From Escherichia coli (GTDB taxonomy: Bacteria > Pseudomonadota > Gammaproteobacteria > Enterobacterales > Enterobacteriaceae), in NCBI RefSeq assembly GCF_017348835.2, contig NZ_CP071375.1: a stretch of 64,000 nt of DNA, one strand, 5' to 3'. The notes beneath the pieces are model-generated. The model saw only the letters and a list, made by a program, of their open reading frames with translations, ran no database searches and was not told where the DNA came from. Within the stretch, counting starts at the first letter, position 1, and the number at the start of each line of letters is the position of its first letter. Positions 1-49,200 of the stretch are shown one piece after another. Both the position numbers and the translations under genes were made by a program.

Positions 1-798
1 AAGGTCGTAGGGCCAGATAATAGGCTTTGCTCTAATTTTGGTACTAGTTTTGCTGCTCCAATTGTGGCAAGTTTAGCTGCGCATACATGGCAGAGAATAG
101 CCACTAATTCAGACTTTAATGTTTCACCATCATTGATTAAAGCATTATTAATTCATTCCGCTCAATTATCTTCTCCTGATTACTCGCCAAGTGAAAGACG
201 CTATTTGGGAGCGGGAATTCCTAATGAGGTTATTGAGACCTTATATGATAGTGATGATAGGTTTACTCTGATTTTCCAAACATTCTTGGTTCCTGGGGTG
301 AGGTGGAGAAAGGAAAACTATCCCATACCATCGGCACTTATTCAAAATGGAAAATTTAAAGGTGAGATTGTAATTACTGCTGCATATGCACCACCACTAA
401 ACCCTAATGCCGGCAGTGAATATGTTCGCGCGAACGTAGAGCTAAGTTTTGGCTTAATTGAGAATAATACTATAAAAGGAAAAGTGCCTATGGAAGGAGA
501 AAACGGTCAATCTGGATATGAGAGAGCTCAAATTGAGCATGGTGGAAAGTGGTCACCAGTAAAAATTCATCGCAAGGCATTTAATAAAGGAATTACTTCG
601 GGTAACTGGGCTCTTCAGGCTAAAACAACGTTGAGAGCGAATGAACCGGCCTTAATGGAGCCTTTACCTGTAACTATTGTAGTAACTTTAAAATCATTAG
701 ATGGAAACACACAAGTTTATGCTGATGGTGTAAGAGCTTTAAATGCTAATAACTGGGCTCACTATCCATTGCCTGCTCGTGTGCCAGTTTCCGTATAA
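1..798 (+). CDS. S8 subtilisin-like serine peptidase, C-terminal part (5' end lies outside the window)
   Basis: Frame 1 is open from nt 1 and reads KVVGPDNRLCSNFGTSFAAPIVASLAAH; GTSFAAP is the subtilase catalytic-Ser motif. About 235 aa of C-terminal extension follow. The ORF track lists only 64..798. Confidence 0.7.
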   Translation, partial: KVVGPDNRLCSNFGTSFAAPIVASLAAHTWQRIATNSDFNVSPSLIKALLIHSAQLSSPDYSPSERRYLGAGIPNEVIETLYDSDDRFTLIFQTFLVPGVRWRKENYPIPSALIQNGKFKGEIVITAAYAPPLNPNAGSEYVRANVELSFGLIENNTIKGKVPMEGENGQSGYERAQIEHGGKWSPVKIHRKAFNKGITSGNWALQAKTTLRANEPALMEPLPVTIVVTLKSLDGNTQVYADGVRALNANNWAHYPLPARVPVSV

Positions 799-812
799 CA
801 ACTATATAAATC

Positions 813-840
813 AAACCCGCTGTAGCGGGTTTGATTTATT
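813..840 (+). terminator. Rho-independent terminator after the peptidase gene
   Basis: GC hairpin aacccgc-tgta-gcgggtt followed by a T-rich tract. Confidence 0.5.
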
Positions 841-1214
841 TGTGGGTGTGTTTTATAAAAATACCGCCCATACACAACAAAATACAAAAAGTATTACAGA
901 TAAAAAAGGAGCGTAATGTGCAGATTTGTTGTTTTCCATATTTACTCACCTTAATATGATTAATCCTGATAAGATTGTTATTTCAGCGGTTTTCAAATGA
1001 GATATTATGCTAATCTGGCAGATTTGCATAACATTAAAATTTAATTTGTCTAACCGCTTTTAATAATAAGCGTTGTATTTTTATCCCAGCAATCTATTGT
1101 TTGATTTTTATTCCATCAATGTGGGGGCTTTACACTGGAACCAGTTTATTTATACTTTATACGTCAGCCTGAACAACTGGCATCTGCTGCACTGCGCCAT
1201 CGAGAGATTGAGAA

Positions 1215-1814
1215 ATGGCGCATATACAACTGGTCAAACAAACCTCTTCTGGTTTACTTCTCCCGGCGACGCCGGAGAGTTGCGATTTTCTGCATCAAAT
1301 CAAAATAGGTGAGTGGATACACGCAGACTTTAAGCGTGTGCGTAACTACGCATTCCACAAGCGTTTTTTCAAACTCCTGCAACTGGGATTCGATTACTGG
1401 ACTCCGGTCGGTGGGGCGATCACGCCTCGCGAACGAGAACTGCTGTCTGGTTTCGTGGATTACCTGTGCGAATCAGTTGGTCGGGAACACACATCAGCCC
1501 TGAGTGATGCCGCAGAGCAATACCTTAACACCGTTGCGACTCGTAGAACCCGGGATACGGCGTTGCTAAAGTCGTTTGAGGCTTTCCGCGAGTGGGTAAC
1601 CATTCAGGCCGGATTTTACACCGAGCATATTTATCCGGACGGTAGCCGTGGGCGTCGGGCAAAATCCATCGCTTTTGCGAATATGGACGAAGTCGAGTTT
1701 CAGCAGGTTTATAAATCTGTACTGAATGTGCTGTGGAACTGGATTCTGTTCCGTAAATTCTCCTCTCAGGAGGAAGTTGAAAATGTGGCCGCACAACTAC
1801 TGGAGTTTGCGTAA
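1215..1814 (+). CDS. Lambdoid prophage nin-region protein (DUF1367-like)
   Basis: 199-aa ORF directly upstream of and coupled to the YbcO-like and Q genes; the family assignment is from memory. Confidence 0.5.
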   Translation: MAHIQLVKQTSSGLLLPATPESCDFLHQIKIGEWIHADFKRVRNYAFHKRFFKLLQLGFDYWTPVGGAITPRERELLSGFVDYLCESVGREHTSALSDAAEQYLNTVATRRTRDTALLKSFEAFREWVTIQAGFYTEHIYPDGSRGRRAKSIAFANMDEVEFQQVYKSVLNVLWNWILFRKFSSQEEVENVAAQLLEFA

Positions 1815-2104
1815 TGGTGAATTTACGTAAAGCGGCTAAAGGCCAGATGTGCCAGATCAGAATCCCTGGCTACTGCAATCACAATCCCGAAACCTCTGTG
1901 CTGGCGCATTACAGGCTGGCGGGGACGTGCGGAACAGCGACAAAACCACACGATATGCAGGCGGCGATAGCCTGTAGCTCATGCCACGATCTAATCGACG
2001 GGCGGGTAAAAACCAGCGATTACACCAAAGAAGAATTGCGCCTGATGCATGCTGAAGGGGTTTTTCGCACACAAGAAATCTGGAGAAAGAAAGGTCATTT
2101 ATGA
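1814..2104 (+). CDS. YbcO-like prophage nuclease (DUF1364)
   Basis: 96 aa with the Cys-rich motif CQIRIPGYCNHNPETSVLAH...ACSSCHD, resembling DLP12 YbcO; the start overlaps the upstream stop. Confidence 0.65.
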   Translation: MVNLRKAAKGQMCQIRIPGYCNHNPETSVLAHYRLAGTCGTATKPHDMQAAIACSSCHDLIDGRVKTSDYTKEELRLMHAEGVFRTQEIWRKKGHL

Positions 2105-2643
2105 TTTACCCAACGAATACAGGAAAAAGCGGAGAACACCTTCGCCTCACCACGCTGGAAAGTGTCTGGATTCAGGGAAAACTACGTATGTGGGGGCGCT
2201 GGTCGTATATTGGCGGTGGCAGGTCAGGGAATATGTTCAATCAGTTGTTGGCATCCAAAAAACTGACGAAAACAGCCATTAATGAAGCCCTGCGCAGAAT
2301 GAAAAAAGCGGGAATAGAGAAAGCTGAGCTGGAAGCGTTTTTGCGAGAGATGATCAACGGCAAGCAAAAGAGCTGGCTGGCGCATTGTACTGATGCAGAG
2401 GCGTTATGTATTGATCGAGTCATAAGTGAGGTGCTGGCAGAGCATCCAGGATTGATTTGCATTCTCCGGCAACGCTATGAAGGGCGGGGGATGGCTAAGC
2501 GCAAAATGGCTGAATTGCTAAATGATGCACACCCAGAGTGGTGTTTTAGCACATGCGAAAAACGGATTGCTAATTGGTTAGCTGTTGCTGAGTATGCCCT
2601 ATATATTCCCATGCGTGAATCATTTGCTGAGAAAATGGCTTGA
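2101..2643 (+). CDS. Late-gene antiterminator Q-like protein
   Basis: 180-aa ORF overlapping the ybcO-like stop (ATGA), upstream of a terminator and of a phage-21-type lysis cassette; the call rests mainly on position. Confidence 0.5.
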   Translation: MIYPTNTGKSGEHLRLTTLESVWIQGKLRMWGRWSYIGGGRSGNMFNQLLASKKLTKTAINEALRRMKKAGIEKAELEAFLREMINGKQKSWLAHCTDAEALCIDRVISEVLAEHPGLICILRQRYEGRGMAKRKMAELLNDAHPEWCFSTCEKRIANWLAVAEYALYIPMRESFAEKMA

Positions 2644-2723
2644 TTTCTTACGTATAAACTGCTTCAATTTTGCTATGCTTCGCAAAGCTGTATCGCGAGG
2701 CGGATTGCAGACATGGACATCGT

Positions 2724-2750
2724 AAAAAAACCGCTTAATGCGGTTTTTTT
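2724..2750 (+). terminator. Rho-independent terminator downstream of Q (tR'-like)
   Basis: aaaaaaaccgc-ttaat-gcggttttttt: a short GC stem flanked by an A-run and a T-run. Confidence 0.6.
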
Positions 2751-3628
2751 ACGTCAGGAAAGCAGGGGAGAATGCTGCTAGTTGGGCAACTGGTCTTTCT
2801 GCTCCAAATTATAACAGAGACCAGTTATAGTTTCGGTGCTGTGTTTTTTTTACAATATTGTGATAACACATTGCTGGCGGGAGTTTTGATATTTCTTGGC
2901 AGGGGCTGATGATGCGTTATCCTGATGTCGTCAACTCATATAAAATGAGATGAGAGATCATTGCAGGGTGGTTTGTAATTCGCTGTTTAGCGGGACAATA
3001 TGTTGTCTGATACAAGACACCCGACGCCTCAGATTACTATAATAAAGACGAAGCATCCTTTGTATTGACCAACCGCCTGTTTAGGCGGTTCTTTCTGGGC
3101 TGGTTTATTGTATGCCAAATGATTATTAAAAAGGTTGTGTTAATAACAAAATCCGAAATAATATGCCTGCATATTTTTATCTTGCTTATATTCTGCATAT
3201 TGTGCATAGCAGGCTCATCCCTGCAATCAAAACTGTATGATGAGTATTTTTTGTTTTCCTTTTTTCCAGTCATCTGATGATGACCTGCTTCTTTTTAATC
3301 CGGATCGACATCAGTTTTTTAAGATAATTCCTGCGAGTTATATGCATAAATGCCACAAACTCCGCATTTTATGTGGTTGGGAGTTGCCGGGCGCGCAGTG
3401 AGTTTGCTAAGAAAACTCCTGCATGGTGAATCCCCCTGTGCGGTGGGGTGATACCATTAACCTTTTCTGTCGCCGACAGGTATCACGAACATTTTGTTCA
3501 CCGGGAGGCACCCGGCACCATGCACTTCAATAGATTCTCTCCACATTATGGATATTCTTTCAGAATATCCCACGCAGACTTTGTGTAAATGTTAACAAAT
3601 GTGCGTTTTATTTGATCTGATTCGCTGT

Positions 3629-4116: not shown

Positions 4117-4266
4117 TATTTATTGTTTTGTAATAAACGGTTTCGGCTTAGGTTTGTTCTGACACAGCTACGGCACTGAGCTAAATTTAGCGGATAGTCA
4201 GCTCTGAGCCAGTGGCGGACGTAACAACTACTATTGCTGAGATTTTAATGGATTGAGGAGCAAGAA

Positions 4267-4662
4267 GTGGGATTAAAGAAAATCGTTATGTTGACTTTTT
4301 GGGTCGGTTTTGTTGCGGGATGCACACCTTTACACCCTTCAGATTGCCACAAAACTACTGCTACAGGTAGTTGCAGTTCAGGACGCTGGGATGATCAGGA
4401 TGAATGGGGGGCGCAAGCGCGGGGAATCAGAGCTGCAATTAATGCCAAACTTGATGAGCCGCATAACTGGAAAGGGAAAAAATGCAGGTTGCATATGGAA
4501 TTCTCTCAGGATGGCACGGCGTTAAAAATATCTACCAGTAACGGTGATAAAGCCTATTGCGAAGCGATAAAGTCCGCAGCTCATAAAGCCAAATTTCCGG
4601 CCTTCAACAATCCGGAAGTCTACAGAGATTTTCAGAAATCTGGCTTTGACATGCGAGGTTAG
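4267..4662 (+). CDS. Second, divergent TolA domain III-like lipoprotein (moron gene 2)
   Basis: GTG start with SD gaggag; signal peptide MGLKKIVMLTFWVGFVAGC (lipobox VAGC, Thr at +2); C-terminal KGKKCRLHMEFSQDGTALKIS...FPAFNNPEVYRDFQ follows the same pattern as gene 1 and TolA-III. Confidence 0.65.
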   Translation: MGLKKIVMLTFWVGFVAGCTPLHPSDCHKTTATGSCSSGRWDDQDEWGAQARGIRAAINAKLDEPHNWKGKKCRLHMEFSQDGTALKISTSNGDKAYCEAIKSAAHKAKFPAFNNPEVYRDFQKSGFDMRG

Positions 4663-4787
4663 CTCTTCAATTACTATATCTCATTCATAGCAAACTGACA
4701 GATTTGATGATGTTCTATATACGAAACCTGTGATGTCAAGTCTGAGCTAATACAAATAAACATAATATCAGAGAAATACATTTTATT

Positions 4788-4811
4788 AGCTCGCTACGGC
4801 GAGCTTTTTAT
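4788..4811 (+). terminator. Rho-independent terminator closing the lipoprotein moron
   Basis: agctcgc-tacg-gcgagct followed by ttttta. Confidence 0.55.
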
Positions 4812-4913
4812 ATTGCATCGTCTCCAGCATATATATCAATTAAGGCTCTGATTGATGTGTCTGAAAGCCTACACATAATAACTATGCCATCCGTTCCGTG
4901 CGGAGGTGAGGCT

Positions 4914-5129
4914 ATGAAATCCATGGACAAAATTTCAACAGGCATTGCCTACGGCACCTCCGCAGGCAGTGCTGGCTACTGGTTTTTACAGTTGCTCGAT
5001 AGAGTAACTCCGTCACAGTGGGCTGCAATCGGTGTGCTGGGTAGTCTGGTATTTGGCCTGCTGACGTACCTGACAAACCTTTATTTCAAGATTAAAGAAG
5101 ATAAGCGCAAGGCTGCGAGAGGTGAATAA
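4914..5129 (+). CDS. Phage-21-type class II holin (pinholin S21-like) with a dual-start motif
   Basis: [26 protein letters not shown]... 71 aa from Met 4914; the MKSMDK arrangement matches the S21 antiholin/holin dual start; SD ggaggtgag. The ORF track extends upstream to 4857. Confidence 0.8.
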
Positions 5130-5626
5130 TGCCTCCATCATTACGAAAAGTCGTTGCTGCTGCTATTGGTGGCGGAGCAATTGCTATAGCATCAGTGTTA
5201 ATCACTGGCCCAAGTGGTAACGATGGTCTGGAAGGTGTCAGCTACATACCATACAAAGATATTGTTGGTGTATGGACTGTATGTCACGGGCATACAGGAA
5301 AAGACATCATGCTCGGTAAAACGTATACCAAAGCAGAATGCAAAACACTCTTGAATAAAGACCTTGCCACTGTCGCCAGACAAATTAACCCGTACATCAA
5401 AGTCGATATACCGGAAACAACGCGCGGCGCTCTTTACTCATTCGTTTACAACGTGGGTGCTGGCAATTTCAGAACATCGACGCTTCTTCGCAAAATAAAC
5501 CAGGGCGATATCAAAGGCGCATGTGATCAGCTACGTCGCTGGACATATGCTGGCGGTAAGCAATGGAAAGGTCTCATGACTCGTCGTGAGATTGAGCGTG
5601 AAATCTGTTTGTGGGGTCAGCAATGA
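5129..5626 (+). CDS. SAR endolysin (R21-like lysozyme)
   Basis: 165 aa with an N-terminal hydrophobic signal-anchor-release segment ([20 protein letters not shown]) followed by a lysozyme domain; start overlaps the holin stop (taATG). Confidence 0.8.
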
Positions 5627-6087
5627 ACAGAGTAACCGCGATTATCTCCGCTCTGGTTATCTGCATCATCGTCTGCCTGTCATGGGCTGTTAATCATTAC
5701 CGTGATAACGCCATTACCTACAAAGCCCAGCGCGACAAAAATGCCAGAGAACTGAAGCTGGCGAACTCGACAATTACTGACATGCAGGTGCGCCAGCGTG
5801 ATGTTGCTGCGCTCGATGCAAAATACACGAAGGAGTTAGCTGATGCGAAAGCTGAAAATGATGCTCTGCGTGATGATGTTGCCGCTGGTCGTCGTCGGTT
5901 GCACATCAAAGCAGTCTGTCAGTCAGTGCGTGAAGCCACCACCGCCTCCGGCGTGGATAATGCAGCCTCCCCCCGACTGGCAGACACCGCTGAACGGGAT
6001 TATTTCACCCTCCGGGAACGACTGGTAATGATGCAGGCCCAACTTGAAGGTGCTCAGCAATACATAACCGAGCAGTGTTTAAAGTAA
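5623..6087 (+). CDS. Rz i-spanin
   Basis: [47 protein letters not shown]... is close to lambda Rz; start overlaps the endolysin stop. Confidence 0.85.
5843..6028 (+). CDS. Rz1 o-spanin lipoprotein, embedded in the +1 frame of Rz
   Basis: [24 protein letters not shown]...[16 protein letters not shown]: lipobox plus Pro-rich region, fully nested inside Rz as in lambda. Confidence 0.85.
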
Positions 6088-6224
6088 AATCTTAACTACA
6101 ATATGATTCATTTTGATGATTGTTTCATAAGGAACAGTGAAGTAAGATCTAAGAGGAGTTAAATTTTATACAGTATAATCATAATATTGCAGCAAGGTGG
6201 TTATAATTGAAAGAATATTTAGAT

Positions 6225-7682
6225 ATGAATACATCTCATGTAAGAGTTGTTACTCATATGTGTGGGTTCCTGGTTTGGCTCTATAGTCTTTCAATGTTGC
6301 CACCAATGGTTGTAGCATTGTTTTATAAAGAAAAAAGCCTGTTCGTTTTCTTTATAACTTTCGTTATATTTTTTTGCATTGGTGGCGGAGCGTGGTATAC
6401 AACTAAGAAATCTGGCATTCAATTACGTACCCGTGATGGGTTTATTATAATTGTAATGTTTTGGATTTTGTTTTCTGTTATTAGTGCATTCCCTTTATGG
6501 ATTGACTCAGAACTTAATTTAACGTTCATTGATGCTCTGTTTGAAGGGGTTTCTGGAATAACAACAACAGGAGCAACTGTAATTGATGATGTTAGTTCAT
6601 TACCTCGGGCATATTTGTACTATCGGTCACAGTTAAATTTTATAGGTGGTTTAGGAGTTATTGTTCTGGCGGTTGCTGTATTGCCATTATTGGGTATTGG
6701 TGGTGCAAAGCTTTATCAGTCAGAAATGCCGGGGCCATTTAAGGATGACAAACTCACTCCCCGCCTGGCCGATACGTCACGGACACTGTGGATAACTTAT
6801 TCTTTATTAGGTATTGCTTGTATTGTCTGTTATAGACTTGCAGGAATGCCTTTGTTTGATGCTATTTGTCACGGGATTTCCACAGTTTCGCTTGGTGGTT
6901 TCTCAACTCATAGCGAGAGTATCGGATATTTTAATAACTATTTGGTTGAGCTGGTGGCTGGTTCTTTTTCCCTGCTATCGGCTTTCAACTTCACTCTTTG
7001 GTATATTGTTATTAGCAGGAAAACGATAAAACCTTTAATCAGAGATATTGAACTTCGTTTCTTTCTGTTAATAGCCTTAGGGGTGATCATTGTTACCTCT
7101 TTCCAGGTCTGGCATATAGGTATGTATGACTTGCATGGAAGTTTTATTCATTCGTTTTTTCTTGCCAGCTCCATGCTCACTGATAATGGTTTAGCTACGC
7201 AGGATTATGCAAGTTGGCCCACGCATACGATAGTGTTTTTGCTGTTGTCAAGTTTCTTTGGGGGATGTATAGGTTCAACTTGTGGTGGAATTAAGTCACT
7301 TCGATTTCTTATACTTTTCAAACAAAGCAAACACGAGATAAATCAGCTTTCTCATCCCAGAGCGTTGTTGAGTGTAAATGTAGGAGGGAAGATAGTTACA
7401 GATCGTGTAATGAGGTCTGTATGGAGTTTCTTTTTTCTTTATACTCTCTTCACGGTGTTTTTTATACTGGTGTTAAATGGTATGGGATATGATTTTCTTA
7501 CATCATTTGCAACAGTGGCTGCATGTATTAATAATATGGGATTAGGTTTTGGGGCTACTGCATCGTCATTCGGAGTGCTTAATGACATTGCAAAATGTTT
7601 AATGTGCATAGCTATGATTCTTGGTCGCCTTGAAATTTATCCTGTTATTATATTGTTTTCAGGTTTTTTTTGGCGCTCCTAA
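6225..7682 (+). CDS. trkG: Prophage-encoded K+ uptake protein TrkG (TrkH paralogue)
   Basis: 485 aa from MNTSHVRVVTHMCGFLVWLYSLSMLPP; AT-rich gene, same position after Rz/Rz1 as in K-12 Rac. Confidence 0.9.
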   Translation: MNTSHVRVVTHMCGFLVWLYSLSMLPPMVVALFYKEKSLFVFFITFVIFFCIGGGAWYTTKKSGIQLRTRDGFIIIVMFWILFSVISAFPLWIDSELNLTFIDALFEGVSGITTTGATVIDDVSSLPRAYLYYRSQLNFIGGLGVIVLAVAVLPLLGIGGAKLYQSEMPGPFKDDKLTPRLADTSRTLWITYSLLGIACIVCYRLAGMPLFDAICHGISTVSLGGFSTHSESIGYFNNYLVELVAGSFSLLSAFNFTLWYIVISRKTIKPLIRDIELRFFLLIALGVIIVTSFQVWHIGMYDLHGSFIHSFFLASSMLTDNGLATQDYASWPTHTIVFLLLSSFFGGCIGSTCGGIKSLRFLILFKQSKHEINQLSHPRALLSVNVGGKIVTDRVMRSVWSFFFLYTLFTVFFILVLNGMGYDFLTSFATVAACINNMGLGFGATASSFGVLNDIAKCLMCIAMILGRLEIYPVIILFSGFFWRS

Positions 7683-21974: not shown

Positions 21975-22181
21975 AAGACTTTCTCCAGTGATGTTGAATC
22001 ACATTTAAGCTACTTAAAATATTTTACAAAATTTCAAATTTAATTGAAAGCTATGGCGATATTGAAAAATTCATCAACAACTATGCTTAGTGTAGGCGCA
22101 ACCTTCAACTGAACGGTTAAACATGCCACAATACCCGTATTGAATGCTTAATTTTTCGCTAAATCAGGATATTAACTACCC

Positions 22182-24821
22182 ATGCTGGGTAAATATAAAG
22201 CCGTTCTCGCGCTGTTATTACTGATTATTCTTGTGCCGTTGACGCTGCTGATGACGCTCGGGCTGTGGGTTCCCACGCTGGCGGGCATCTGGCTACCGCT
22301 CGGGACACGTATTGCATTAGATGAAAGCCCACGCATTACGCGTAAAGGTTTAATCATTCCCGATCTCCGTTATCTGGTGGGAGATTGTCAGCTTGCGCAT
22401 ATCACCAACGCCAGCCTTTCACATCCGAGCCGCTGGTTATTGAACGTCGGCACGGTAGAACTTGATTCTGCTTGTCTGGCGAAATTGCCGCAGACGGAGC
22501 AATCGCCAGCTGCTCCAAAAACCCTCGCGCAGTGGCAGTCCATGCTGCCTAACACCTGGATCAATATCGATAAACTGATTTTTTCTCCCTGGCAGGAATG
22601 GCAGGGAAAACTCTCTCTCGCATTAACCTCCGATATCCAGCAACTGCGTTATCAGGGCGAAAAAGTTAAATTTCAAGGCCAGCTGAAAGGGCAACAACTT
22701 ACAGTCAGCGAACTGGATGTCGTCGCGTTTGAAAATCAGCCGCCGGTTAAACTGGTGGGGGAATTTACTATGCCGCTCGTGCCGGATGGACTTCCTGTAA
22801 GTGGTCATGCTACTGCGACGTTAAACTTGCCGCAGGAACCGTCACTGGTAGATGCCGAGCTGGACTGGCAGGAGAATAGCGGGCAATTGATTGTGCTGGC
22901 ACGGGATAACGGCGATCCGTTGCTCGATTTGCCGTGGCAAATTACGCGTCAACAATTGACCGTAAGCGATGGTCGCTGGAGCTGGCCGTATGCAGGTTTT
23001 CCTTTGAGTGGCCGACTGGGTGTCAAAGTCGACAACTGGCAGGCAGGGCTTGAGAACGCTCTGATCAGCGGACGACTTAGTGTGCTGACCCAGGGGCAAG
23101 CGGGTAAAGGCAACGCGGTGCTTAATTTTGGCCCAGGAAAATTAAGCATGGATAACAGCCAGCTGCCTCTGCAGCTGACCGGTGAAGCGAAACAGGCGGA
23201 CCTCATTTTATATGCCCGTTTACCTGCGCAGGTAAGTGGAAGTCTGTCTGACCCAACGCTGACCTTTGAGCCAGGCGCGTTATTTCGTTCAAAGGGAAGA
23301 GTCATCGATTCGCTGGACATCGATGAAATCCGCTGGCCTTTAGCGGGTGTAAAAGTGACCCAACGTGGTGTTGACGGACGTTTGCAGGCCATTTTGCAGG
23401 CGCATGAAAATGAACTGGGCGATTTCGTGCTGCATATGGATGGGCTGGCGAGTGATTTTCTCCCTGACGCTGGCCGCTGGCAGTGGCGCTACTGGGGAAA
23501 AGGGAGTTTTACACCGATGAATGCCACCTGGGATGTCGCAGGAAAAGGTGAGTGGCATGACAGCACGATTACGCTGACCGATCTCTCCACCGGTTTCGAC
23601 CAGTTACAATACGGTACGATGACGGTAGAAAAGCCGCGATTAATTCTCGACAAGCCCGTCGTCTGGGTACGTGACGCACAGCATCCCTCCTTCAGCGGCG
23701 CGCTGTCACTGGACGCCGGGCAAACGCTGTTCACTGGCGGCAGTGTGTTACCGCCATCAACCTTAAAATTTAGCGTCGATGGGCGCGATCCGACGTATTT
23801 CCTCTTTAAAGGCGATTTACATGCTGGTGAGATTGGCCCGGTTCGGGTAAATGGTCGCTGGGACGGTATTCGTCTGCGCGGTAACGCCTGGTGGCCTAAA
23901 CAATCACTGACTGTATTCCAGCCGCTGGTGCCACCCGACTGGAAGATGAACTTACGCGATGGTGAACTGTATGCTCAGATTGCATTTTCTGCTGCGCCTG
24001 AACAAGGATTCCGCGCGGGAGGGCACGGCGTGTTGAAAGGCGGTAGTGCCTGGATGCCAGATAATCAGGTTAACGGTGTCGATTTTGTCCTGCCTTTCCG
24101 TTTTGCCGATGGAGCCTGGCATCTGGGGACTCGCGGCCCCGTTACGTTGCGAATTGCCGAAGTGATTAATCTGGTGACAGCGAAAAATATTACGGCTGAT
24201 TTGCAAGGGCGTTATCCGTGGACTGAAGAAGAACCATTGCTGTTGACTGATGTTAGCGTCGATGTGTTAGGCGGTAACGTGCTGATGAAACAATTACGTA
24301 TGCCGCAACATGACCCGGCGCTGTTGCGGCTGAATAATCTCTCATCCAGCGAACTGGTTAGTGCCGTCAATCCGAAACAATTTGCCATGTCCGGGGCATT
24401 TAGTGGTGCATTGCCGTTATGGCTAAACAACGAAAAATGGATAGTGAAAGATGGTTGGCTGGCAAATAGCGGGCCAATGACCTTGCGGCTGGATAAAGAC
24501 ACCGCAGATGCGGTGGTGAAAGACAATATGACTGCGGGTTCAGCAATTAACTGGTTGCGCTATATGGAAATTAGCCGTTCATCGACAAATATTAATTTAG
24601 ATAATCTCGGTTTATTAACCATGCAGGCCAACATTACAGGTACCAGTCGCGTTGATGGTAAAAGCGGTACGGTAAACCTTAATTACCATCATGAAGAGAA
24701 TATTTTTACGCTGTGGCGCAGTTTACGCTTTGGCGATAATCTCCAGGCATGGTTGGAGCAGAACGCACGTCTGCCGGGAAATGACTGTCCGCAAGGAAAA
24801 GAGTGTGAGGAAAAACAATGA
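22182..24821 (+). CDS. ydbH: AsmA-family envelope protein YdbH
   Basis: 879 aa with an N-terminal membrane anchor; followed by coupled ynbE and ydbL as in K-12. Confidence 0.9.
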   Translation: MLGKYKAVLALLLLIILVPLTLLMTLGLWVPTLAGIWLPLGTRIALDESPRITRKGLIIPDLRYLVGDCQLAHITNASLSHPSRWLLNVGTVELDSACLAKLPQTEQSPAAPKTLAQWQSMLPNTWINIDKLIFSPWQEWQGKLSLALTSDIQQLRYQGEKVKFQGQLKGQQLTVSELDVVAFENQPPVKLVGEFTMPLVPDGLPVSGHATATLNLPQEPSLVDAELDWQENSGQLIVLARDNGDPLLDLPWQITRQQLTVSDGRWSWPYAGFPLSGRLGVKVDNWQAGLENALISGRLSVLTQGQAGKGNAVLNFGPGKLSMDNSQLPLQLTGEAKQADLILYARLPAQVSGSLSDPTLTFEPGALFRSKGRVIDSLDIDEIRWPLAGVKVTQRGVDGRLQAILQAHENELGDFVLHMDGLASDFLPDAGRWQWRYWGKGSFTPMNATWDVAGKGEWHDSTITLTDLSTGFDQLQYGTMTVEKPRLILDKPVVWVRDAQHPSFSGALSLDAGQTLFTGGSVLPPSTLKFSVDGRDPTYFLFKGDLHAGEIGPVRVNGRWDGIRLRGNAWWPKQSLTVFQPLVPPDWKMNLRDGELYAQIAFSAAPEQGFRAGGHGVLKGGSAWMPDNQVNGVDFVLPFRFADGAWHLGTRGPVTLRIAEVINLVTAKNITADLQGRYPWTEEEPLLLTDVSVDVLGGNVLMKQLRMPQHDPALLRLNNLSSSELVSAVNPKQFAMSGAFSGALPLWLNNEKWIVKDGWLANSGPMTLRLDKDTADAVVKDNMTAGSAINWLRYMEISRSSTNINLDNLGLLTMQANITGTSRVDGKSGTVNLNYHHEENIFTLWRSLRFGDNLQAWLEQNARLPGNDCPQGKECEEKQ

Positions 24822-34295: not shown

Positions 34296-35041
34296 ATGAA
34301 TCAGTTAACGGCTTACACCTTGCGCCTGGGCGATAACTGTCTGGTGCTCTCCCAGCTGTTGGGTGAATGGTGCGGTCATGCACCGGAACTGGAAATCGAT
34401 CTCGCACTGGCAAACATTGGCCTCGATTTATTAGGTCAGGCACGCAACTTCTTATCGTATGCCGCTGAATTAGCGGGAGAAGGCGATGAAGATCCCTGGC
34501 CTTCACCCGAGACGAGCGCCAGTTCAGCAACTTATTGTTGGTTGAACAACCAAACGGCAATTTTGCCGACACCATTGCACGCCAGTATTTCATCGATGCA
34601 TGGCATGTGGCGCTCTTTACCCGTCTGATGGAAAGCCGTGATCCGCAACTGGCAGCGATTTCTGCCAAAGCAATTAAAGAAGCGCGTTATCACCTGCGTT
34701 TTAGTCGTGGCTGGCTGGAGCGACTGGGCAATGGTACTGACGTATCAGGGCAAAAGATGCAGCAGGCCATCGACAAGTTGTGGCGTTTTACTGCCGAACT
34801 GTTCGATGCCGACGAGATTGATATTGCACTGAGTGAAGAGGGTATTGCGGTTGATCCACGCACTTTACGCGCAGCGTGGGAAGCCGAAGTTTTTGCCGGA
34901 ATCAACGAAGCCACATTGAACGTGCCGCAAGAGCAGGCGTATCGCACTGGCGGTAAAAAAGGACTGCATACCGAACACCTTGGGCCAATGCTGGCAGAAA
35001 TGCAGTATCTCCAGCGTGTCTTGCCCGGTCAGCAGTGGTAA
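34296..35041 (+). pseudogene. paaC: paaC disrupted by a 1-nt frameshift near 34494
   Basis: The N-terminal 66 codons (MNQLTAY...GEGDED) are in one frame and the remainder (LAFTRDERQFSNLLLVEQPNGNF...LPGQQW) in the +1 frame. The two pieces sum to exactly the 248-aa PaaC length if one base is restored at gat|ccctgg. The ORF track shows this as 34284..34628 plus 34535..35041. Confidence 0.75.
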
Positions 35042-41255: not shown

Positions 41256-42569
41256 ATGATAACCAATACAAAGCTTGACCCGATTGAAACCGCGTCTGTT
41301 GATGAGTTACAGGCGTTGCAAACACAGCGTCTGAAATGGACGCTCAAACACGCGTATGAAAATGTGCCGATGTATCGGCGCAAATTCGACGCAGCAGGCG
41401 TACATCCTGATGATTTCAGGGAACTTTCAGACCTGCGTAAATTTCCCTGTACCACCAAACAGGATCTGCGCGACAACTATCCCTTCGACACCTTTGCCGT
41501 GCCGATGGAACAAGTGGTGCGCATTCATGCTTCTTCGGGAACCACAGGTAAACCGACAGTTGTCGGCTATACGCAAAACGATATTGATAACTGGGCCAAT
41601 ATTGTAGCGCGTTCGTTGCGTGCGGCGGGTGGCACGCCCAAAGACAAAATTCATGTTGCCTATGGTTACGGCCTGTTTACTGGTGGGCTGGGCGCGCACT
41701 ATGGTGCCGAACGTCTGGGCGCTACGGTGATCCCGATGTCTGGTGGGCAGACGGAAAAACAAGCGCAACTGATCCGCGATTTTCAACCAGATATGATCAT
41801 GGTTACGCCATCTTATTGCCTTAACCTGATTGAAGAGCTGGAGCGGCAGTTGGGCGGTGATGCCAGCGGTTGCTCGCTGCGGGTTGGAGTGTTTGGTGCT
41901 GAGCCGTGGACACAGGCCATGCGTAAAGAAATTGAGCGTCGCCTGGGGATCACCGCACTGGATATTTATGGCCTGTCAGAAGTGATGGGGCCGGGGGTGG
42001 CGATGTAGTGTCTGGAAACTACCGACGGCCCAACCATTTGGGAAGATCATTTCTATCCTGAAATTGTTAATCCTCATGACGGCACACCGCTTGCCGATGG
42101 TGAACATGGCGAACTGTTATTCACCACGCTGACCAAAGAAGCATTGCCGGTCATTCGTTACCGCACGCGTGATTTAACCCGACTGTTACCAGGAACGGCG
42201 CGGACTATGCGCCGCATGGATCGCATCAGCGGACGCAGCGATGACATGTTGATTATTCGCGGTGTAAATGTCTTTCCGTCACAACTGGAAGAAGAGATTG
42301 TCAAATTCGAACATTTATCGCCGCATTACCAACTGGAGGTGAACCGCCGGGGGCATCTTGATTCACTTTCTGTGAAAGTAGAGCTGAAAGAAAGCAGCCT
42401 GACATTGACGCATGAGCAGCGTTGCCAGGTGTGCCACCAGCTACGCCATCGGATTAAGTCGATGGTGGGGATTTCTACCGATGTGATGATCGTTAACTGT
42501 GGCAGTATCCCGCGTTCAGAAGGCAAGGCGTGTCGGGTGTTTGATCTGCGCAATATTGTTGGTGCCTGA
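41256..42569 (+). pseudogene. paaK: paaK (phenylacetate-CoA ligase) interrupted by an in-frame TAG at 42006-42008
   Basis: From MITNTKLDPIETAS the frame gives 437 codons in total, but codon ~251 is TAG (...GPGVAM*CLETTDGPTIW...). The rest of the gene continues in the same frame and matches PaaK, as listed in the ORF track (41172..42008 and 42144..42569). Confidence 0.75.
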
Positions 42570-42669: not shown

Positions 42670-43620
42670 ATGAGTAAACTTGATACTTTTATCCAACATG
42701 CTGTAAACGCTGTTCCGGTCAGTGGCACTTCTTTGATCTCCTCTCTGTATGGTGATTCGCTTTCCCATCGTGGTGGTGAAATCTGGCTGGGTAGTCTGGC
42801 TGCTTTGCTGGAAGGGCTGGGATTTGGTGAGCGTTTCGTGCGCACCGCTTTGTTTCGTCTTAATAAAGAAGGCTGGCTGGATGTTTCCCGCATCGGGCGA
42901 CGCAGTTTCTATAGCCTCAGTGATAAAGGCTTGCGCCTGACGCGACGGGCAGAAAGTAAAATTTATCGCGCAGAGCAACCTGCATGGGATGGTAAATGGC
43001 TCCTGTTGCTCTCGGAAGGTTTAGATAAAGCGACGCTGGCTGATGTCAAAAAGCAGTTGATCTGGCAAGGTTTTGGCGCACTTGCACCCAGCCTGATGGC
43101 ATCGCCGTCGCAAAAACTGGCGGATGTACAGACACTTTTGCATGAAGCGGGTGTGGCGGATAACGTGATTTGTTTTGAAGCGCAAATACCACTGGCGCTT
43201 TCTCGTGCAGCACTGCGTGCCAGAGTGGAAGAGTGCTGGCATTTAACTGAACAAAATGCCATGTACGAAACCTTTATTCAGTCATTCCGCCCGCTGGTGC
43301 CGCTGTTAAAAGAGACGGCAGACGAGTTAACCCCGGAGCGTGCATTTCATATTCAGCTTTTACTGATCCATTTTTATCGCCGTGTCGTCCTTAAAGACCC
43401 ATTGTTGCCGGAGGAGTTGCTTCCGGCTCACTGGGCAGGGCATACGGCGCGTCAGCTGTGTATCAACATTTATCAGCGCGTAGCGCCTGCTGCTTTAGCG
43501 TTCGTTAGTGAAAAAGGTGAAACCTCGGTCGGTGAACTGCCTGCGCCGGGAAGCCTGTATTTTCAACGTTTTGGCGGCTTGAATATTGAACAGGAGGCGT
43601 TATGCCAATTTACCAGATAG
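42670..43620 (+). CDS. paaX: Transcriptional repressor PaaX
   Basis: 316 aa, PaaX family. Confidence 0.9.
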
Positions 43621-44192
43621 ATGGTCTGACTCCGGTTGTGCCAGAAGAGAGCTTTGTCCATCCGACAGCGGTATTGATCGGCGATGTTATTCTCGGGAAG
43701 GGCGTTTACGTTGGGCCAAATGCCAGCCTGCGTGGCGATTTTGGTCGTATCGTGGTGAAAGATGGCGCGAACATTCAGGATAATTGCGTTATGCACGGTT
43801 TTCCCGAGCAGGATACTGTCGTGGAAGAAGATGGACATATTGGTCATAGCGCTATCCTTCACGGCTGCATTATCCGCCGCAATGCATTAGTGGGAATGAA
43901 CGCGGTAGTGATGGACGGTGCGGTGATTGGTGAGAACAGCATTGTTGGCGCATCCGCATTTGTGAAAGCCAAAGCAGAAATGCCTGCTAATTACCTGATT
44001 GTCGGCAGCCCGGCGAAAGCGATTCGTGAACTCAGTGAGCAGGAGCTGGCATGGAAAAAGCAGGGCACGCATGAGTATCAGGTGCTGGTGACACGCTGTA
44101 AGCAGACGTTGCATCAAGTTGAGCCATTGCGGGAAGTTGAACCGGACAGAAAACGTCTGGTATTTGATGAAAATCTGCGACCAAAACAGTAA
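43602..44192 (+). CDS. paaY: Hexapeptide-repeat thioesterase PaaY
   Basis: 196 aa, left-handed beta-helix / gamma-carbonic-anhydrase-like repeats. Confidence 0.9.
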
Positions 44193-44234
44193 CGTCCAGA
44201 TACTGAACATTCTAATTTTTAGCATGTGATCCCT

Positions 44235-44269
44235 AAACCGCAACCCTGATACAGGTTGCGGTTTTTTTA
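44235..44269 (+). terminator. Rho-independent terminator after paaY
   Basis: aaccgcaacc-ctgataca-ggttgcggtt followed by a T-run. Confidence 0.65.
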
Positions 44270-44423
44270 TTGCCGGATGCGGCGCTTTACGCGTTTTGTT
44301 TTGGTGTCTTTCAGGACAATAGAGCAACTCATCCAGTAATCTTGTTTACACCTTCGCATTATTTATCTCTTTTCGTTTCTATACTGATTTTTCTTAATCC
44401 GTTTTATTACAGGGCAGGGTGCG

Positions 44424-45284
44424 ATGAGCAGCAATACATTTACTCTCGGTACTAAATCCGTTAACCGTCTTGGTTATGGCGCGATGCAACTGGCAGGTCC
44501 TGGGGTTTTTGGCCCCCCAAGAGATCGTCATGTCGCTATAACTGTGCTGCGAGAGGCGCTGGCATTGGGCGTCAATCACATTGATACCAGCGACTTTTAT
44601 GGTCCGCACGTCACCAATCAGATTATCCGCGAAGCGCTTTATCCTTACTCTGACGACCTGACAATTGTCACTAAAATTGGTGCGCGGCGTGGAGAGGACG
44701 CTTCCTGGTTGCCCGCCTTTTCTCCGGCAGAGTTGCAAAAAGCGGTGCACGATAATCTACGTAATCTCGGCCTGGACGTACTGGATGTGGTTAACCTGCG
44801 CGTTATGATGGGGGATGGTCATGGCCCAGCGGAAGGATCGATTGAGGCCAGCCTGACCGTGCTGGCAGAGATGCAACAACAAGGCTTGGTAAAACATATT
44901 GGCCTGAGCAACGTCACACCGACGCAGGTTGCAGAGGCGCGTAAGATTACCGAAATCGTCTGTGTGCAGAACGAATACAACATTGCTCATCGTACTGATG
45001 ACGCAATGATTGATGCTTTGGCCCGCGAAGGCATTGCCTATGTGCCGTTCTTCCCGCTCGGGGGCTTTACGCCGCTGCAATCCTCTACGCTGTCGGATGT
45101 TGCTGCGAGCCTGGGTGCAACACCCATGCAGGTGGCGCTGGCGTGGCTGTTACAACGTTCACCGAATATTTTGCTGATCCCAGGGACGTCTTCTGTTGCG
45201 CATTTACGGGAGAATATGGCTGCTGAAAAATTGCATCTTTCTGAGGAAGTGTTGTCTACGTTGGATGGTATTTCGCGAGAATAA
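44424..45284 (+). CDS. ydbC: Aldo-keto reductase YdbC
   Basis: 286 aa, AKR family (MSSNTFTLGTKSVNRLGYGAMQL...). Confidence 0.85.
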   Translation: MSSNTFTLGTKSVNRLGYGAMQLAGPGVFGPPRDRHVAITVLREALALGVNHIDTSDFYGPHVTNQIIREALYPYSDDLTIVTKIGARRGEDASWLPAFSPAELQKAVHDNLRNLGLDVLDVVNLRVMMGDGHGPAEGSIEASLTVLAEMQQQGLVKHIGLSNVTPTQVAEARKITEIVCVQNEYNIAHRTDDAMIDALAREGIAYVPFFPLGGFTPLQSSTLSDVAASLGATPMQVALAWLLQRSPNILLIPGTSSVAHLRENMAAEKLHLSEEVLSTLDGISRE

Positions 45285-45409
45285 CGAGCCAGACGCTCGC
45301 ATATTGTGCTTAAGGAAGATCACAAAGCGATGCTGAAATTATGGGAAAACAGGTAAGTGGATTGAGATGTGGACTGAAGATCTACAGTCCACATCTAGAC
45401 CGTGTCCGG

Positions 45410-46024
<615 letters not shown>

Positions 46025-46215
46025 TTATAGATATTTGAATGGGCGATGCCCCGTTGCTTGTTGACACTTTATTCACAATCCTGCCACAGAGATAGCGCAA
46101 TAAATCGAAGCCTATGTTCGAATTTATTGAACAACGCATAGAAAGCAGCGATGTGGTACTCTATATCTATCATTTAAAAGAAAATTAATCAGGCAGACTA
46201 CTGCCCTCTAACGTT

Positions 46216-49200
46216 ATGACAGAACAACAAAAATTGACCTTTGCTGACTTGCAGCAGCGGCTGGATTCGCTGATGCTGCGCGACAGACAGCGTTTTTCTA
46301 GCCGTCTGCACGGTGTGAAGAAGGTTAAAAATCCTGATGCACAACAGGCCATTTTCCAGGAGATGGCGAAAGAGATTGACCAGGCGGCAGGGAAAGTCCT
46401 GCTGCGTGAAGCGGCACGACCGGAAATTACTTATCCTGACAATTTACCGGTTAGTCAGAAAAAACAGGACATTCTCGAAGCGATTCGTGATCACCAGGTG
46501 GTGATCGTCGCCGGGGAAACGGGTTCTGGTAAAACGACTCAGTTACCGAAAATCTGTATGGAGCTGGGGCGCGGGATTAAAGGGCTGATCGGCCATACCC
46601 AGCCGCGTCGCCTGGCGGCAAGAACGGTGGCGAACCGTATTGCGGAAGAGCTGAAAACGGAGCCGGGCGGTTGCATCGGTTACAAAGTGCGTTTCAGCGA
46701 TCACGTAAGTGATAACACGATGGTCAAGCTGATGACCGACGGTATCCTGCTGGCGGAGATCCAGCAAGACCGCCTGCTGATGCAGTACGACACCATCATT
46801 ATTGACGAAGCGCACGAACGCAGCCTGAATATCGATTTTCTGCTCGGCTATTTGAAAGAGTTGCTGCCGCGGCGTCCTGACCTAAAAATCATTATCACTT
46901 CCGCGACTATCGACCCGGAACGCTTTTCGCGCCACTTTAATAATGCGCCGATTATCGAAGTCTCCGGTCGGACCTATCCGGTGGAAGTGCGCTATCGCCC
47001 GATTGTTGAAGAAGCCGATGACACCGAGCGCGATCAGTTGCAGGCGATTTTTGACGCCGTAGACGAACTGAGCCAGGAAAGCCCCGGCGACATTCTGATC
47101 TTTATGAGCGGCGAGAGGGAAATCCGCGATACCGCCGATGCGCTGAACAAGCTGAACTTACGCCATACCGAAATCTTGCCGCTTTATGCACGACTTTCGA
47201 ACAGCGAACAGAACCGCGTGTTCCAGTCGCACAGCGGACGGCGTATTGTGCTGGCGACCAACGTCGCGGAAACCTCGCTGACCGTACCGGGGATTAAATA
47301 CGTTATCGACCCCGGTACAGCGCGTATCAGCCGCTACAGCTATCGCACCAAAGTGCAGCGTTTGCCGATTGAGCCGATTTCCCAGGCGTCTGCCAATCAG
47401 CGTAAAGGCCGCTGTGGTCGTGTGTCCGAAGGGATCTGTATTCGTCTCTATTCCGAAGACGATTTCCTCTCGCGCCCGGAGTTTACCGACCCGGAAATTC
47501 TGCGTACCAACCTGGCCTCGGTTATTTTGCAGATGACCGCGCTGGGGCTGGGCGATATCGCTGCGTTCCCGTTTGTCGAAGCACCGGATAAACGCAATAT
47601 CCAGGATGGCGTGCGTCTGCTCGAAGAGCTGGGCGCGATCACCACTGATGAACAGGCCAGCGCCTATAAACTGACGCCGCTCGGTCGCCAGCTCTCGCAG
47701 TTGCCTGTCGACCCACGTCTGGCGCGTATGGTGCTGGAAGCGCAAAAACATGGCTGCGTGCGTGAGGCGATGATTATCACGTCCGCGCTCTCCATTCAGG
47801 ATCCGCGCGAGCGTCCGATGGACAAGCAGCAGGCATCGGACGAAAAACATCGTCGCTTCCACGACAAAGAGTCTGACTTCCTCGCGTTTGTGAATCTGTG
47901 GAATTATCTTGGCGAGCAGCAAAAGGCGCTTTCTTCCAACGCCTTCCGTCGCCTGTGTCGTACCGATTATCTCAACTATCTGCGCGTGCGCGAATGGCAG
48001 GATATCTACACCCAGTTGCGCCAGGTGGTGAAAGAACTCGGCATTCCGGTGAACAGCGAACCGGCGGAATATCGCGAAATTCACATTGCGTTGCTGACGG
48101 GTTTGCTTTCCCATATCGGCATGAAAGACGCCGATAAACAAGAATATACCGGCGCACGTAACGCACGTTTCTCCATCTTCCCCGGTTCTGGTTTATTCAA
48201 AAAGCCGCCGAAATGGGTAATGGTGGCGGAACTGGTAGAAACCAGCCGCCTGTGGGGACGTATTGCGGCACGCATCGATCCAGAATGGGTGGAACCCGTC
48301 GCTCAGCATTTGATTAAACGCACCTACAGCGAACCGCACTGGGAACGGGCGCAGGGCGCGGTGATGGCAACGGAAAAAGTCACTGTTTATGGTTTGCCGA
48401 TTGTTGCTGCGCGCAAGGTCAACTACAGCCAGATCGATCCGGCGTTATGTCGTGAACTCTTTATTCGCCACGCTCTGGTGGAAGGTGACTGGCAGACGCG
48501 TCACGCATTCTTCCGTGAAAACCTGAAACTGCGGGCCGAAGTGGAAGAGCTGGAACACAAATCACGTCGCCGCGATATTCTGGTTGATGACGAAACGTTG
48601 TTTGAGTTCTACGACCAGCGCATCAGCCACGATGTAATCTCCGCTCGTCACTTCGACAGTTGGTGGAAAAAAGTTAGCCGCGAAACGCCTGATTTGCTCA
48701 ACTTTGAAAAGAGCATGTTGATCAAAGAAGGGGCGGAAAAAATCAGCAAGCTGGATTATCCGAACTTCTGGCATCAGGGCAATCTCAAGCTGCGTTTGAG
48801 CTATCAGTTTGAGCCCGGCGCGGATGCTGACGGTGTGACCGTACATATTCCGCTGCCGTTACTTAACCAGGTTGAGGAAAGCGGGTTTGAATGGCAGATC
48901 CCCGGTCTGCGCCGCGAACTGGTGATTGCTCTGATTAAATCGTTGCCGAAACCGGTACGCCGTAATTTTGTACCCGCGCCAAACTACGCCGAAGCGTTTT
49001 TAGGCCGCGTCACACCGCTGGAGTTACCGTTGCTTGACAGCCTTGAGCGCGAGTTACGGCGGATGACCGGCGTTACCGTTGACCGCGAAGACTGGCACTG
49101 GGATCAGGTGCCCGATCACCTGAAAATCACCTTCCGCGTGGTGGATGACAAAAACAAGAAGCTAAAAGAAGGGCGCTCGCTACAAGATCTGAAAGATGCG

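What the first reader, a model, noticed from the sequence alone, without database searches (positions are those of the whole stretch)
44193..44423. ydbA autotransporter locus absent; paaY abuts ydbC with a partial REP-like element
In K-12 the IS-disrupted autotransporter gene ydbA (with IS2 and IS30) lies between paaY and ydbC. Here only 231 bp separate them, containing the paaY terminator and a REP-like fragment (gccggatgcggcg). This may be the ancestral empty site or a clean deletion of a large adhesin gene.
Basis: partly seen in the sequence, partly recalled or inferred. Interest (0 to 1): 0.3.

Follow-up and report, generated by a model that had tools for sequence, protein, structure and literature searches.

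The report
Old deletion scar replacing ydbA adhesin gene
In this pig E. coli strain the big surface-adhesin gene ydbA that K-12 carries between paaY and ydbC (now called pdxI) has been deleted, leaving a 23-base scar; the same old deletion is in about 37% of complete E. coli genomes, including strain W, so it is an ordinary gene presence/absence difference.

Summary
paaY (43602-44192) and pdxI/ydbC (44424-45284) are 231 bp apart. K-12 has 8,922 bp more here: ynbG and ydbA carrying IS2D and IS30C.

It is a deletion, not an ancestral empty site. The 23 nt after the paaY stop are a remnant of the ydbA 3' end. In strain 99-3311 the scar reads CGTCC+TGATGCTGAAC+GTTCTAA, which is the last 29 nt of ydbA minus 11 nt, plus a 4-nt filler. 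Pseudocitrobacter faecalis, another genus, has paaX-paaY-ydbA-pdxI-azoR.

All 11 sampled empty alleles share this junction, so it arose once. About 2,034 of 5,426 complete E. coli genomes carry it, including E. coli W.

The REP-like 13-mer (44272-44284) is the head of a decayed pair of REP elements (a BIME). K-12 has it too, and two outgroups have it complete.

ydbD-ynbABCD is also gone, leaving a 72-nt ynbD remnant at 45285-45356.

Variable carriage of ydbA is already published. Ordinary; low interest.

The parts
43602..44192 (+). paaY, intact, last gene of the paaXY unit. The left edge of the deletion lies 1-7 nt after its stop codon.
   Evidence: ORF and RefSeq annotation; 97.1% identical to K-12 up to one base after the stop.
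44193..44215 (+). 23-nt deletion scar, CGTCCAGATACTGAACATTCTAA. It is a remnant of the last 29 nt of ydbA (TGATGCTGAAC[TTCAAGAAAAC]GTTCTAA) with an 11-nt internal loss, preceded by C plus the 4-nt filler GTCC.
   Evidence: Same 23-nt segment, in four sequence variants, in 11 of 11 empty alleles sampled. Strain 99-3311 keeps the 11-mer TGATGCTGAAC and GTTCTAA exactly. The ydbA 3' end is conserved in six E. coli alleles and two outgroups. Shuffle test: p = 0.002-0.01 for the 2013C-4991 variant and 0.02-0.04 for the window variant.
44235..44271 (+). Intrinsic terminator: 11-bp stem, 8-nt loop, T7. It follows the ydbA stop in ydbA+ strains. Here it is the first terminator after paaY.
   Evidence: Pattern scan; fold of -17.1 kcal/mol, z = -5.2; same sequence downstream of ydbA in K-12, KY1497, PSUO2 and E-1246.
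44270..44339 (.). Decayed REP pair (BIME relic). The left REP head, TTGCCGGATGCGGCGCTTTACGCGTTTT, has lost its ATCCGGCCTAC tail. The right REP has degenerated to ...GCAACTCATCCAGTAA.
   Evidence: Alignment to complete inverted REP pairs at the same position in Escherichia SCPM-O-B-8794 (L015) and Pseudocitrobacter faecalis (L016). The residual long hairpin folds at -23.9 kcal/mol, z = -3.2. Not annotated as REP in MG1655.
44340..44423 (+). pdxI 5' region, untouched by the deletion. It contains a block conserved across genera (TTC(A/G)TTTCTATACTG ... ACAGGGCAGGGTG). A promoter is inferred, not shown.
   Evidence: Conserved in K-12, B2 strains, E. albertii, SCPM-O-B-8794 and Pseudocitrobacter. 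The consensus scan found no sigma-70 match here.
44424..45284 (+). pdxI (ydbC), an intact aldo-keto-reductase gene annotated as pyridoxine 4-dehydrogenase.
45285..45356 (+). 72-nt 3' remnant of ynbD, the scar of a second, independent deletion that removed ydbD-ynbABC and most of ynbD (7,045 bp in K-12). There is a 3-nt CGA microhomology at the junction.
   Evidence: RefSeq annotates it as an N-terminally truncated hypothetical protein.

Best explanation
The 231-bp paaY-pdxI spacer is the product of one old illegitimate deletion. The deletion removed ynbG and nearly all of the type V autotransporter gene ydbA, from 1-7 nt after the paaY stop to 29 nt before the ydbA stop. That is 8,922 bp in MG1655 coordinates (1465063-1473984), or roughly 6.4 kb without the K-12-specific IS2D and IS30C. 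The junction carries a 4-nt filler (GTCC). An 11-nt slippage loss between two AAC repeats lies inside the remnant. Everything downstream of the scar is the unchanged ydbA-pdxI spacer: the ydbA terminator, a decayed REP pair and the pdxI 5' region. By inference, paaXY transcripts now end at the former ydbA terminator and pdxI expression is unaffected. The only functional consequence is loss of the YdbA adhesin and the 21-aa YnbG. Shown: the structure, the scar, the single origin and the frequency. Inferred: the order of the two small events, how the junction formed, and the transcriptional consequences.
For: (1) Homology with ydbA+ strains runs into the ydbA reading frame. Empty alleles keep (AC)GTTCTAA and GATGCTGAAC of the conserved C-terminal codons GVMLNFKKTF*. 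In Pseudocitrobacter and SCPM-O-B-8794 the same codons end ydbA but different DNA follows the stop, so these bases belong to the gene and not to the spacer. (2) Pseudocitrobacter faecalis has paaX-paaY-ydbA homologue (64% aa identity over 1,846 residues)-pdxI-azoR-hrpA. (3) All 11 sampled empty alleles, including E. coli W, share the same 23-nt junction. (4) 2,034 of 5,426 complete genomes have paaX/paaY-pdxI contiguous, and 3,096 carry the ydbA 3' end. (5) No IS, ydbA or ynbG DNA is left in the window. (6) Published pan-genome work already describes this stretch as a region of heterogeneity, with full-length ydbA in about 42% of phylogroup A (PMC4951805).
Against: The scar is short. For the window's own variant the similarity to ydbA upstream of GTTCTAA is only marginally significant (p = 0.02-0.04); the case rests on the better-preserved variants. 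The left breakpoint sits within a few bases of the paaY stop, an unlikely spot for a random deletion in a 330-bp spacer unless selection kept paaY intact. No extant ydbA allele explains the GTCC filler: the best match to a hypothetical GGCGTCCTGATG allele was 95.5%, i.e. a 3-nt gap. Only one outgroup genus shows the full paaY-ydbA-pdxI synteny. E. albertii has ydbL-pdxI with neither paa nor ydbA.
Confidence: 0.9

Rival explanations
1. Ancestral empty site: paaY and pdxI were originally adjacent, and ydbA (with ynbG) was inserted later in the lineages that have it.
For: E. albertii has no ydbA upstream of pdxI. ydbA alleles are very mosaic: K-12 and KY1497 share only the 3' 2.4 kb at 92%. Such mosaicism is often seen in horizontally exchanged surface-protein genes.
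Against: The empty allele contains ydbA coding bases. Another genus has ydbA at exactly this position between paaY and pdxI. E. albertii also lacks the whole paa cluster, so it is not an example of paaY abutting pdxI. No repeats or mobility genes flank ydbA; only a GATG microhomology is present.
Confidence: 0.04
2. Recurrent, independent deletions of ydbA in many lineages, for example mediated by the IS elements seen in K-12, rather than one old event.
For: The neighbourhood is deletion-prone. There are separate deletions of fea-paa with feaR'/paaX' or paaY' remnants and of ydbD-ynbD. K-12 ydbA carries IS2 and IS30.
Against: All 11 sampled empty alleles, spanning 96-100% flank identity, have the same breakpoints, the same filler and the same 11-nt internal loss. 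No IS remnants are present. Only 11 of about 2,034 were inspected, so rare independent deletions elsewhere are not excluded.
Confidence: 0.05
3. Assembly artefact: a repeat-rich adhesin gene collapsed or was dropped during assembly of PE164.
For: ydbA genes are long and internally repetitive. PE164 has a paaC frameshift that could be a sequencing error.
Against: The identical junction is present in about 2,000 independent complete genomes, including the reference strain W.
Confidence: 0.01

Closest known systems
The paaY-pdxI(ydbC) junction of E. coli W and other ydbA-negative strains (B1 STEC such as O111:H8, KO11FL, LY180)
   Same: Same gene order and the same 23-nt scar; W is identical to the window across the scar. 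Same terminator and REP relic. The spacer is 229-231 bp.
   Different: Those strains keep ydbD-ynbABCD after pdxI, and the window does not. Flanking genes are only about 97.5% identical to the window.
E. coli K-12 paaY-ynbG-ydbA::IS2D::IS30C-pdxI locus
   Same: Same flanking genes. The ydbA-pdxI spacer (terminator, REP relic, pdxI 5' region) is collinear with the window from 44206 on, and the whole 44206-45287 segment is 96% identical.
   Different: K-12 has 8,922 bp more. Its ydbA is itself a pseudogene broken by two IS elements.
REP/BIME extragenic palindromes of Enterobacteriaceae
   Same: Exact 13-nt REP head GCCGGATGCGGCG, extragenic position after a terminator, and a residual inverted pairing with a second decayed copy.
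   Different: The ATCCGGCCTAC tail of the left copy is deleted and the right copy has several substitutions. It is a relic rather than an intact element, and MG1655 does not annotate it as a REP.
Region of heterogeneity around the paa cluster described by Goldstone et al. 2016 (Sci Rep 6:30115, PMC4951805)
   Same: That paper reports variable carriage of paa and of ydbA between the core genes ydbH/ynbE/ydbL and ynbC/ynbD/azoR.
   Different: In the passages read, the paper gives gene-carriage percentages only. It does not describe the junction sequence or scar.

Membership tests
Deletion allele (as opposed to a never-occupied site) | A fragment of the missing gene is retained at the junction | tested here: met
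   18 of the 23 junction bases equal ydbA's last 29 nt minus 11 in strain 99-3311. The window variant differs from that at 3 positions. Shuffle p = 0.002-0.04 depending on the variant.
Deletion allele (as opposed to a never-occupied site) | Outgroup taxa carry the gene at the same position | tested here: met
   Pseudocitrobacter faecalis has paaX-paaY-ydbA-pdxI-azoR. Escherichia SCPM-O-B-8794 has ydbA-pdxI-azoR, but the contig ends inside ydbA.
Deletion allele (as opposed to a never-occupied site) | No insertion signatures (target-site duplication, att sites, mobility genes) flank the gene in occupied alleles | tested here: met
   Flank comparison shows only a 4-nt GATG microhomology. The IS2 and IS30 in K-12 lie inside ydbA, not at its borders.
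Intrinsic (Rho-independent) terminator | G+C-rich stem-loop followed directly by a U/T run, downstream of a stop codon | tested here: met
   11-bp stem with 6 G-C pairs, T7 tail, 43 nt after the paaY stop; -17.1 kcal/mol, 0 of 200 shuffles as stable. Termination activity was not measured.
REP / BIME element | Conserved REP head GCC(G/T)GATG... in an extragenic position | tested here: met
   GCCGGATGCGGCG at 44272-44284. It aligns with the heads of complete REPs in L015 and L016.
REP / BIME element | A complete imperfect palindrome of about 35-40 nt with the complementary tail (…ATCCGGC) | tested here: not met
   The tail is missing: there is a 12-nt gap relative to L015/L016. It is therefore filed as a relic, not an intact REP.
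REP / BIME element | Two REPs in inverted orientation forming a BIME | tested here: inconclusive
   The second copy is recognisable only by alignment (GCAACTCATCCAGTAA versus GCAGCGCATCCGGCAA) and by residual pairing, -23.9 kcal/mol, z = -3.2.
YdbA/BigA-type type Va autotransporter (the missing gene) | A coding sequence for the passenger and C-terminal beta-barrel is present in the window | tested here: not met
   tblastn with three YdbA alleles (KY1497, E-1246, PSUO2) found nothing in the 64-kb window.

The most novel reading that the evidence does not exclude
The ydbA-null allele is a single ancient deletion that has persisted at about 37% across E. coli lineages alongside highly mosaic intact ydbA alleles. 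That pattern could reflect long-term balancing or frequency-dependent selection on a giant surface adhesin (immune or phage pressure against colonisation benefit) rather than neutral loss. The 4 variable sites within the 23-nt scar would then be a small neutral clock for the age of the allele.
Probability: 0.15. Interest if true: 0.3.

Novelty: already known. Interest (0 to 1): 0.1.

Why it matters
It matters little beyond housekeeping. It settles the direction of the ydbA presence/absence polymorphism: loss, not gain. It shows that a terminator and a REP relic that look as if they belong to paaY are inherited from the ydbA 3' region. It also adds one more example of stepwise erosion in a deletion-prone stretch of the E. 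coli chromosome (the fea-paa, ydbA and ydbD-ynbD modules). The 23-nt scar could serve as a simple marker for typing ydbA-null strains.

Tried and rejected
- **Rfam scan of 43000-46500 at a permissive E-value.** It returned only a chance miRNA hit inside hrpA and nothing in the spacer.
- **Sigma-70 consensus scan.** It found no promoter in the spacer, so the pdxI promoter remains inferred.
- **Search for a ydbA allele with an extra codon (GGCGTCCTGATG).** This would have explained the GTCC filler as ydbA sequence. None was found; the best full-length matches were 95.5%, i.e. a 3-nt gap.
- **DNA comparison of K-12 and KY1497 upstream of ydbA.** It was meant to locate a common island boundary. 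There is no homology, because the 5' parts of the ydbA alleles are unrelated at DNA level.
- **Genome-contig scan with PdxI.** E. fergusonii, E. marmotae and E. ruysiae were therefore not examined.
- **IS-mediated deletion.** Rejected, because no IS2 or IS30 DNA is left.
- **61-aa TTG ORF at 44270-44455.** It was listed mechanically. It was treated as spurious because it overlaps the REP relic and the pdxI start, and it was not tested further.

Full report
**What is there.** The window is 100% identical to the chromosome of E. coli PE164, a pig isolate from Nanjing (NZ_CP114128.1, 2408843-2472842). paaY occupies 43602-44192 and the next gene, pdxI (the current name of ydbC), occupies 44424-45284. 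In MG1655 the order is paaY, ynbG, ydbA (a pseudogene split by IS2D and IS30C), pdxI, ydbD, ynbA-D, azoR, hrpA. BLAST of the window against K-12 gives three collinear blocks:

| Window | K-12 locus L001 | Content |
|---|---|---|
| 43400-44193 | 4266-5059 | paaX/paaY |
| 44206-45287 | 14001-15081 | ydbA 3' end and pdxI |
| 45285-46299 | 22127-23141 | ynbD 3' end, azoR, hrpA |

K-12 therefore carries extra DNA at two junctions, not one. No YdbA coding sequence, IS2, IS30 or K-12 paaY-ydbA spacer DNA exists anywhere in the 64-kb window.

**Empty site or deletion.** The homology with ydbA+ strains does not stop at the ydbA stop codon. It runs into the reading frame. Six ydbA alleles from very different strains all end ...GGCGTGATGCTGAACTTCAAGAAAACGTTCTAA, which encodes GVMLNFKKTF*. 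So do the ydbA homologues of Pseudocitrobacter faecalis and of a divergent Escherichia (SCPM-O-B-8794). In those two, different DNA follows the stop codon, so these bases belong to the gene and not to the spacer.

I sampled 11 ydbA-less alleles. In every one, the paaY stop is followed by the same 23-nt segment and then TTTTTAGC.... The best-preserved variant (strain 99-3311) reads CGTCC-TGATGCTGAAC-GTTCTAA. That is the last 29 nt of ydbA minus the 11 nt TTCAAGAAAAC, which lie between two AAC repeats, preceded by C and a 4-nt filler GTCC. The window's variant, CGTCCAGATACTGAACATTCTAA, differs from it at three positions.

Shuffle tests on the part upstream of GTTCTAA give p = 0.002-0.01 for the 2013C-4991 variant and 0.02-0.04 for the window variant. 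The 99-3311 variant, with an exact 11-mer, is stronger still, but I did not simulate it.

Independent support comes from synteny. Pseudocitrobacter faecalis has paaX-paaY-ydbA homologue-pdxI-azoR-hrpA, and the homologue is 64% identical in amino acids over 1,846 residues. The site was therefore occupied ancestrally and ydbA was deleted. In MG1655 coordinates the missing span is 1465063-1473984, or 8,922 bp including the two K-12-specific IS elements.

The junction can also be read with CAGAT coming from the paaY-side flank and a GATG microhomology with ydbA. I cannot decide between the two readings. No extant ydbA allele supplies the filler.

**One event, common allele.** All 11 sampled empty alleles share the same breakpoints, filler and 11-nt internal loss. 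They come from cattle, human, gull, dog and pig isolates and include the reference strain W. That points to a single origin. In 2,034 of 5,426 complete E. coli genomes paaX/paaY and pdxI are contiguous. A short junction probe recovers 1,238 of these under megablast's stricter word requirement. The ydbA 3' end is present in 3,096 genomes. The literature already treats this stretch as a region of heterogeneity, with full-length ydbA in about 42% of phylogroup A (PMC4951805).

**The rest of the spacer.**
- **Terminator.** The hairpin at 44235-44264 plus T7 is a textbook intrinsic terminator, with -17.1 kcal/mol and z = -5.2. It sits downstream of ydbA in every ydbA+ E. coli examined. It is therefore the ydbA terminator, now by default the first terminator after paaY. 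K-12's own weaker paaY-proximal hairpin lies in the deleted DNA.
- **REP fragment.** The 13-mer GCCGGATGCGGCG (44272-44284) occurs once in the window. Aligned with SCPM-O-B-8794 and Pseudocitrobacter, it is the head of the left member of a complete inverted REP pair. In all E. coli examined the left copy has lost its ATCCGGCCTAC tail and the right copy has decayed to ...GCAACTCATCCAGTAA. A residual long hairpin remains. The relic is present in K-12 too, so it has nothing to do with the deletion.
- **pdxI 5' region.** The last ~85 nt before pdxI include a block conserved across genera. The consensus scan found no promoter there.

**Mechanism and consequences.** Shown: an illegitimate deletion with little or no homology at the junction, followed or accompanied by a small slippage deletion. 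It removed ynbG and ydbA and left paaY, the downstream terminator and the pdxI 5' region intact. Inferred: paaXY transcription now ends at the former ydbA terminator, pdxI expression is unchanged, and the phenotype is simply loss of one surface adhesin.

Three bases after the pdxI stop, the window jumps to the last 72 nt of ynbD (45285-45356). The 7,045 bp of K-12 that hold ydbD, ynbA, ynbB, ynbC and most of ynbD are gone, with a CGA microhomology at the junction. The same junction occurs in E-1246, F1140 and 18KM2445 and in 145 genomes overall. B2-type strains, SCPM-O-B-8794 and Pseudocitrobacter have pdxI next to azoR without any ynbD remnant, which looks like the state before ydbD-ynbD arrived. 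Only three complete genomes carry both deletions: PE164, F2_81 and 18KM2445.

**Verdict.** This is a common, already documented presence/absence polymorphism with no new mechanism, so interest is low.

Noticed in passing
window 45285-45356: A second deletion lies directly after pdxI. ydbD, ynbA, ynbB, ynbC and most of ynbD (7,045 bp in K-12) are missing, leaving a 72-nt ynbD 3' remnant and a CGA microhomology. The same junction is in 145 of 5,426 genomes. Both deletions together occur only in PE164, F2_81 and 18KM2445.
   Followed up: yes
window 42006-42008 (paaK) and 34296-35041 (paaC): paaK has an internal TAG where K-12 has GAG (codon 251), and paaC is annotated as frameshifted (746 nt). 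Phenylacetate catabolism is therefore probably defective in this strain, unless the frameshift is a sequencing error.
   Followed up: partly
L008 1046-9010; L010 494-9010: RefSeq/PGAP names the giant (2,654-2,838 aa) ydbA-position proteins of B2-type strains 'EntS/YbdA MFS transporter'. This looks like a YdbA/YbdA name mix-up. The same position in other strains is annotated as autotransporter, pectate lyase-fold or BigA/YdbA domain protein.
   Followed up: no
L095 762-1121; L011 501-1079; L010 1-166: Further independent erosion of the neighbourhood. Strain 18KM2445 keeps only feaR' and 'paaX remnants before paaY. B2-type strains keep a feaR' remnant and a 329-nt paaY 3' fragment in front of ydbA. 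KY1497 has ydbL-ydbA with no paa DNA at all.
   Followed up: partly
L014 (E. albertii NBRC 107761) 4977-6771: The E. albertii type strain has ydbL directly followed by pdxI and then ydbD. It has neither the fea-paa cluster nor ydbA.
   Followed up: partly
window 44424-45284 (pdxI); loci L019-L093: Beyond Escherichia, Pseudocitrobacter and Kluyvera (86-93% aa identity), the next closest PdxI relatives are from Mesorhizobium, Rhizobium, Burkholderia and myxobacteria (73-79%). These are as close as Enterobacter cloacae (75%) or closer. The distribution is patchy and may indicate horizontal transfer.
   Followed up: no
window 44193-44215 and the same segment in L003-L006, L095, L097-L101: The 23-nt scar has four sequence variants and 4 variable sites among 11 genomes. 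That is much more diversity than the ~3% in the flanking genes, though the numbers are small.
   Followed up: partly
window 10548-13732: sitABCD (iron/manganese uptake) lies between prophage tail-fibre gene remnants and uspF. sitB is annotated as truncated.
   Followed up: no
window 43400-45500: This haplotype is unusual. Only PE164 and F2_81 (both from pigs) are at least 99% identical over paaX-azoR. The next best of 5,426 genomes is 97.6-97.7%.
   Followed up: no
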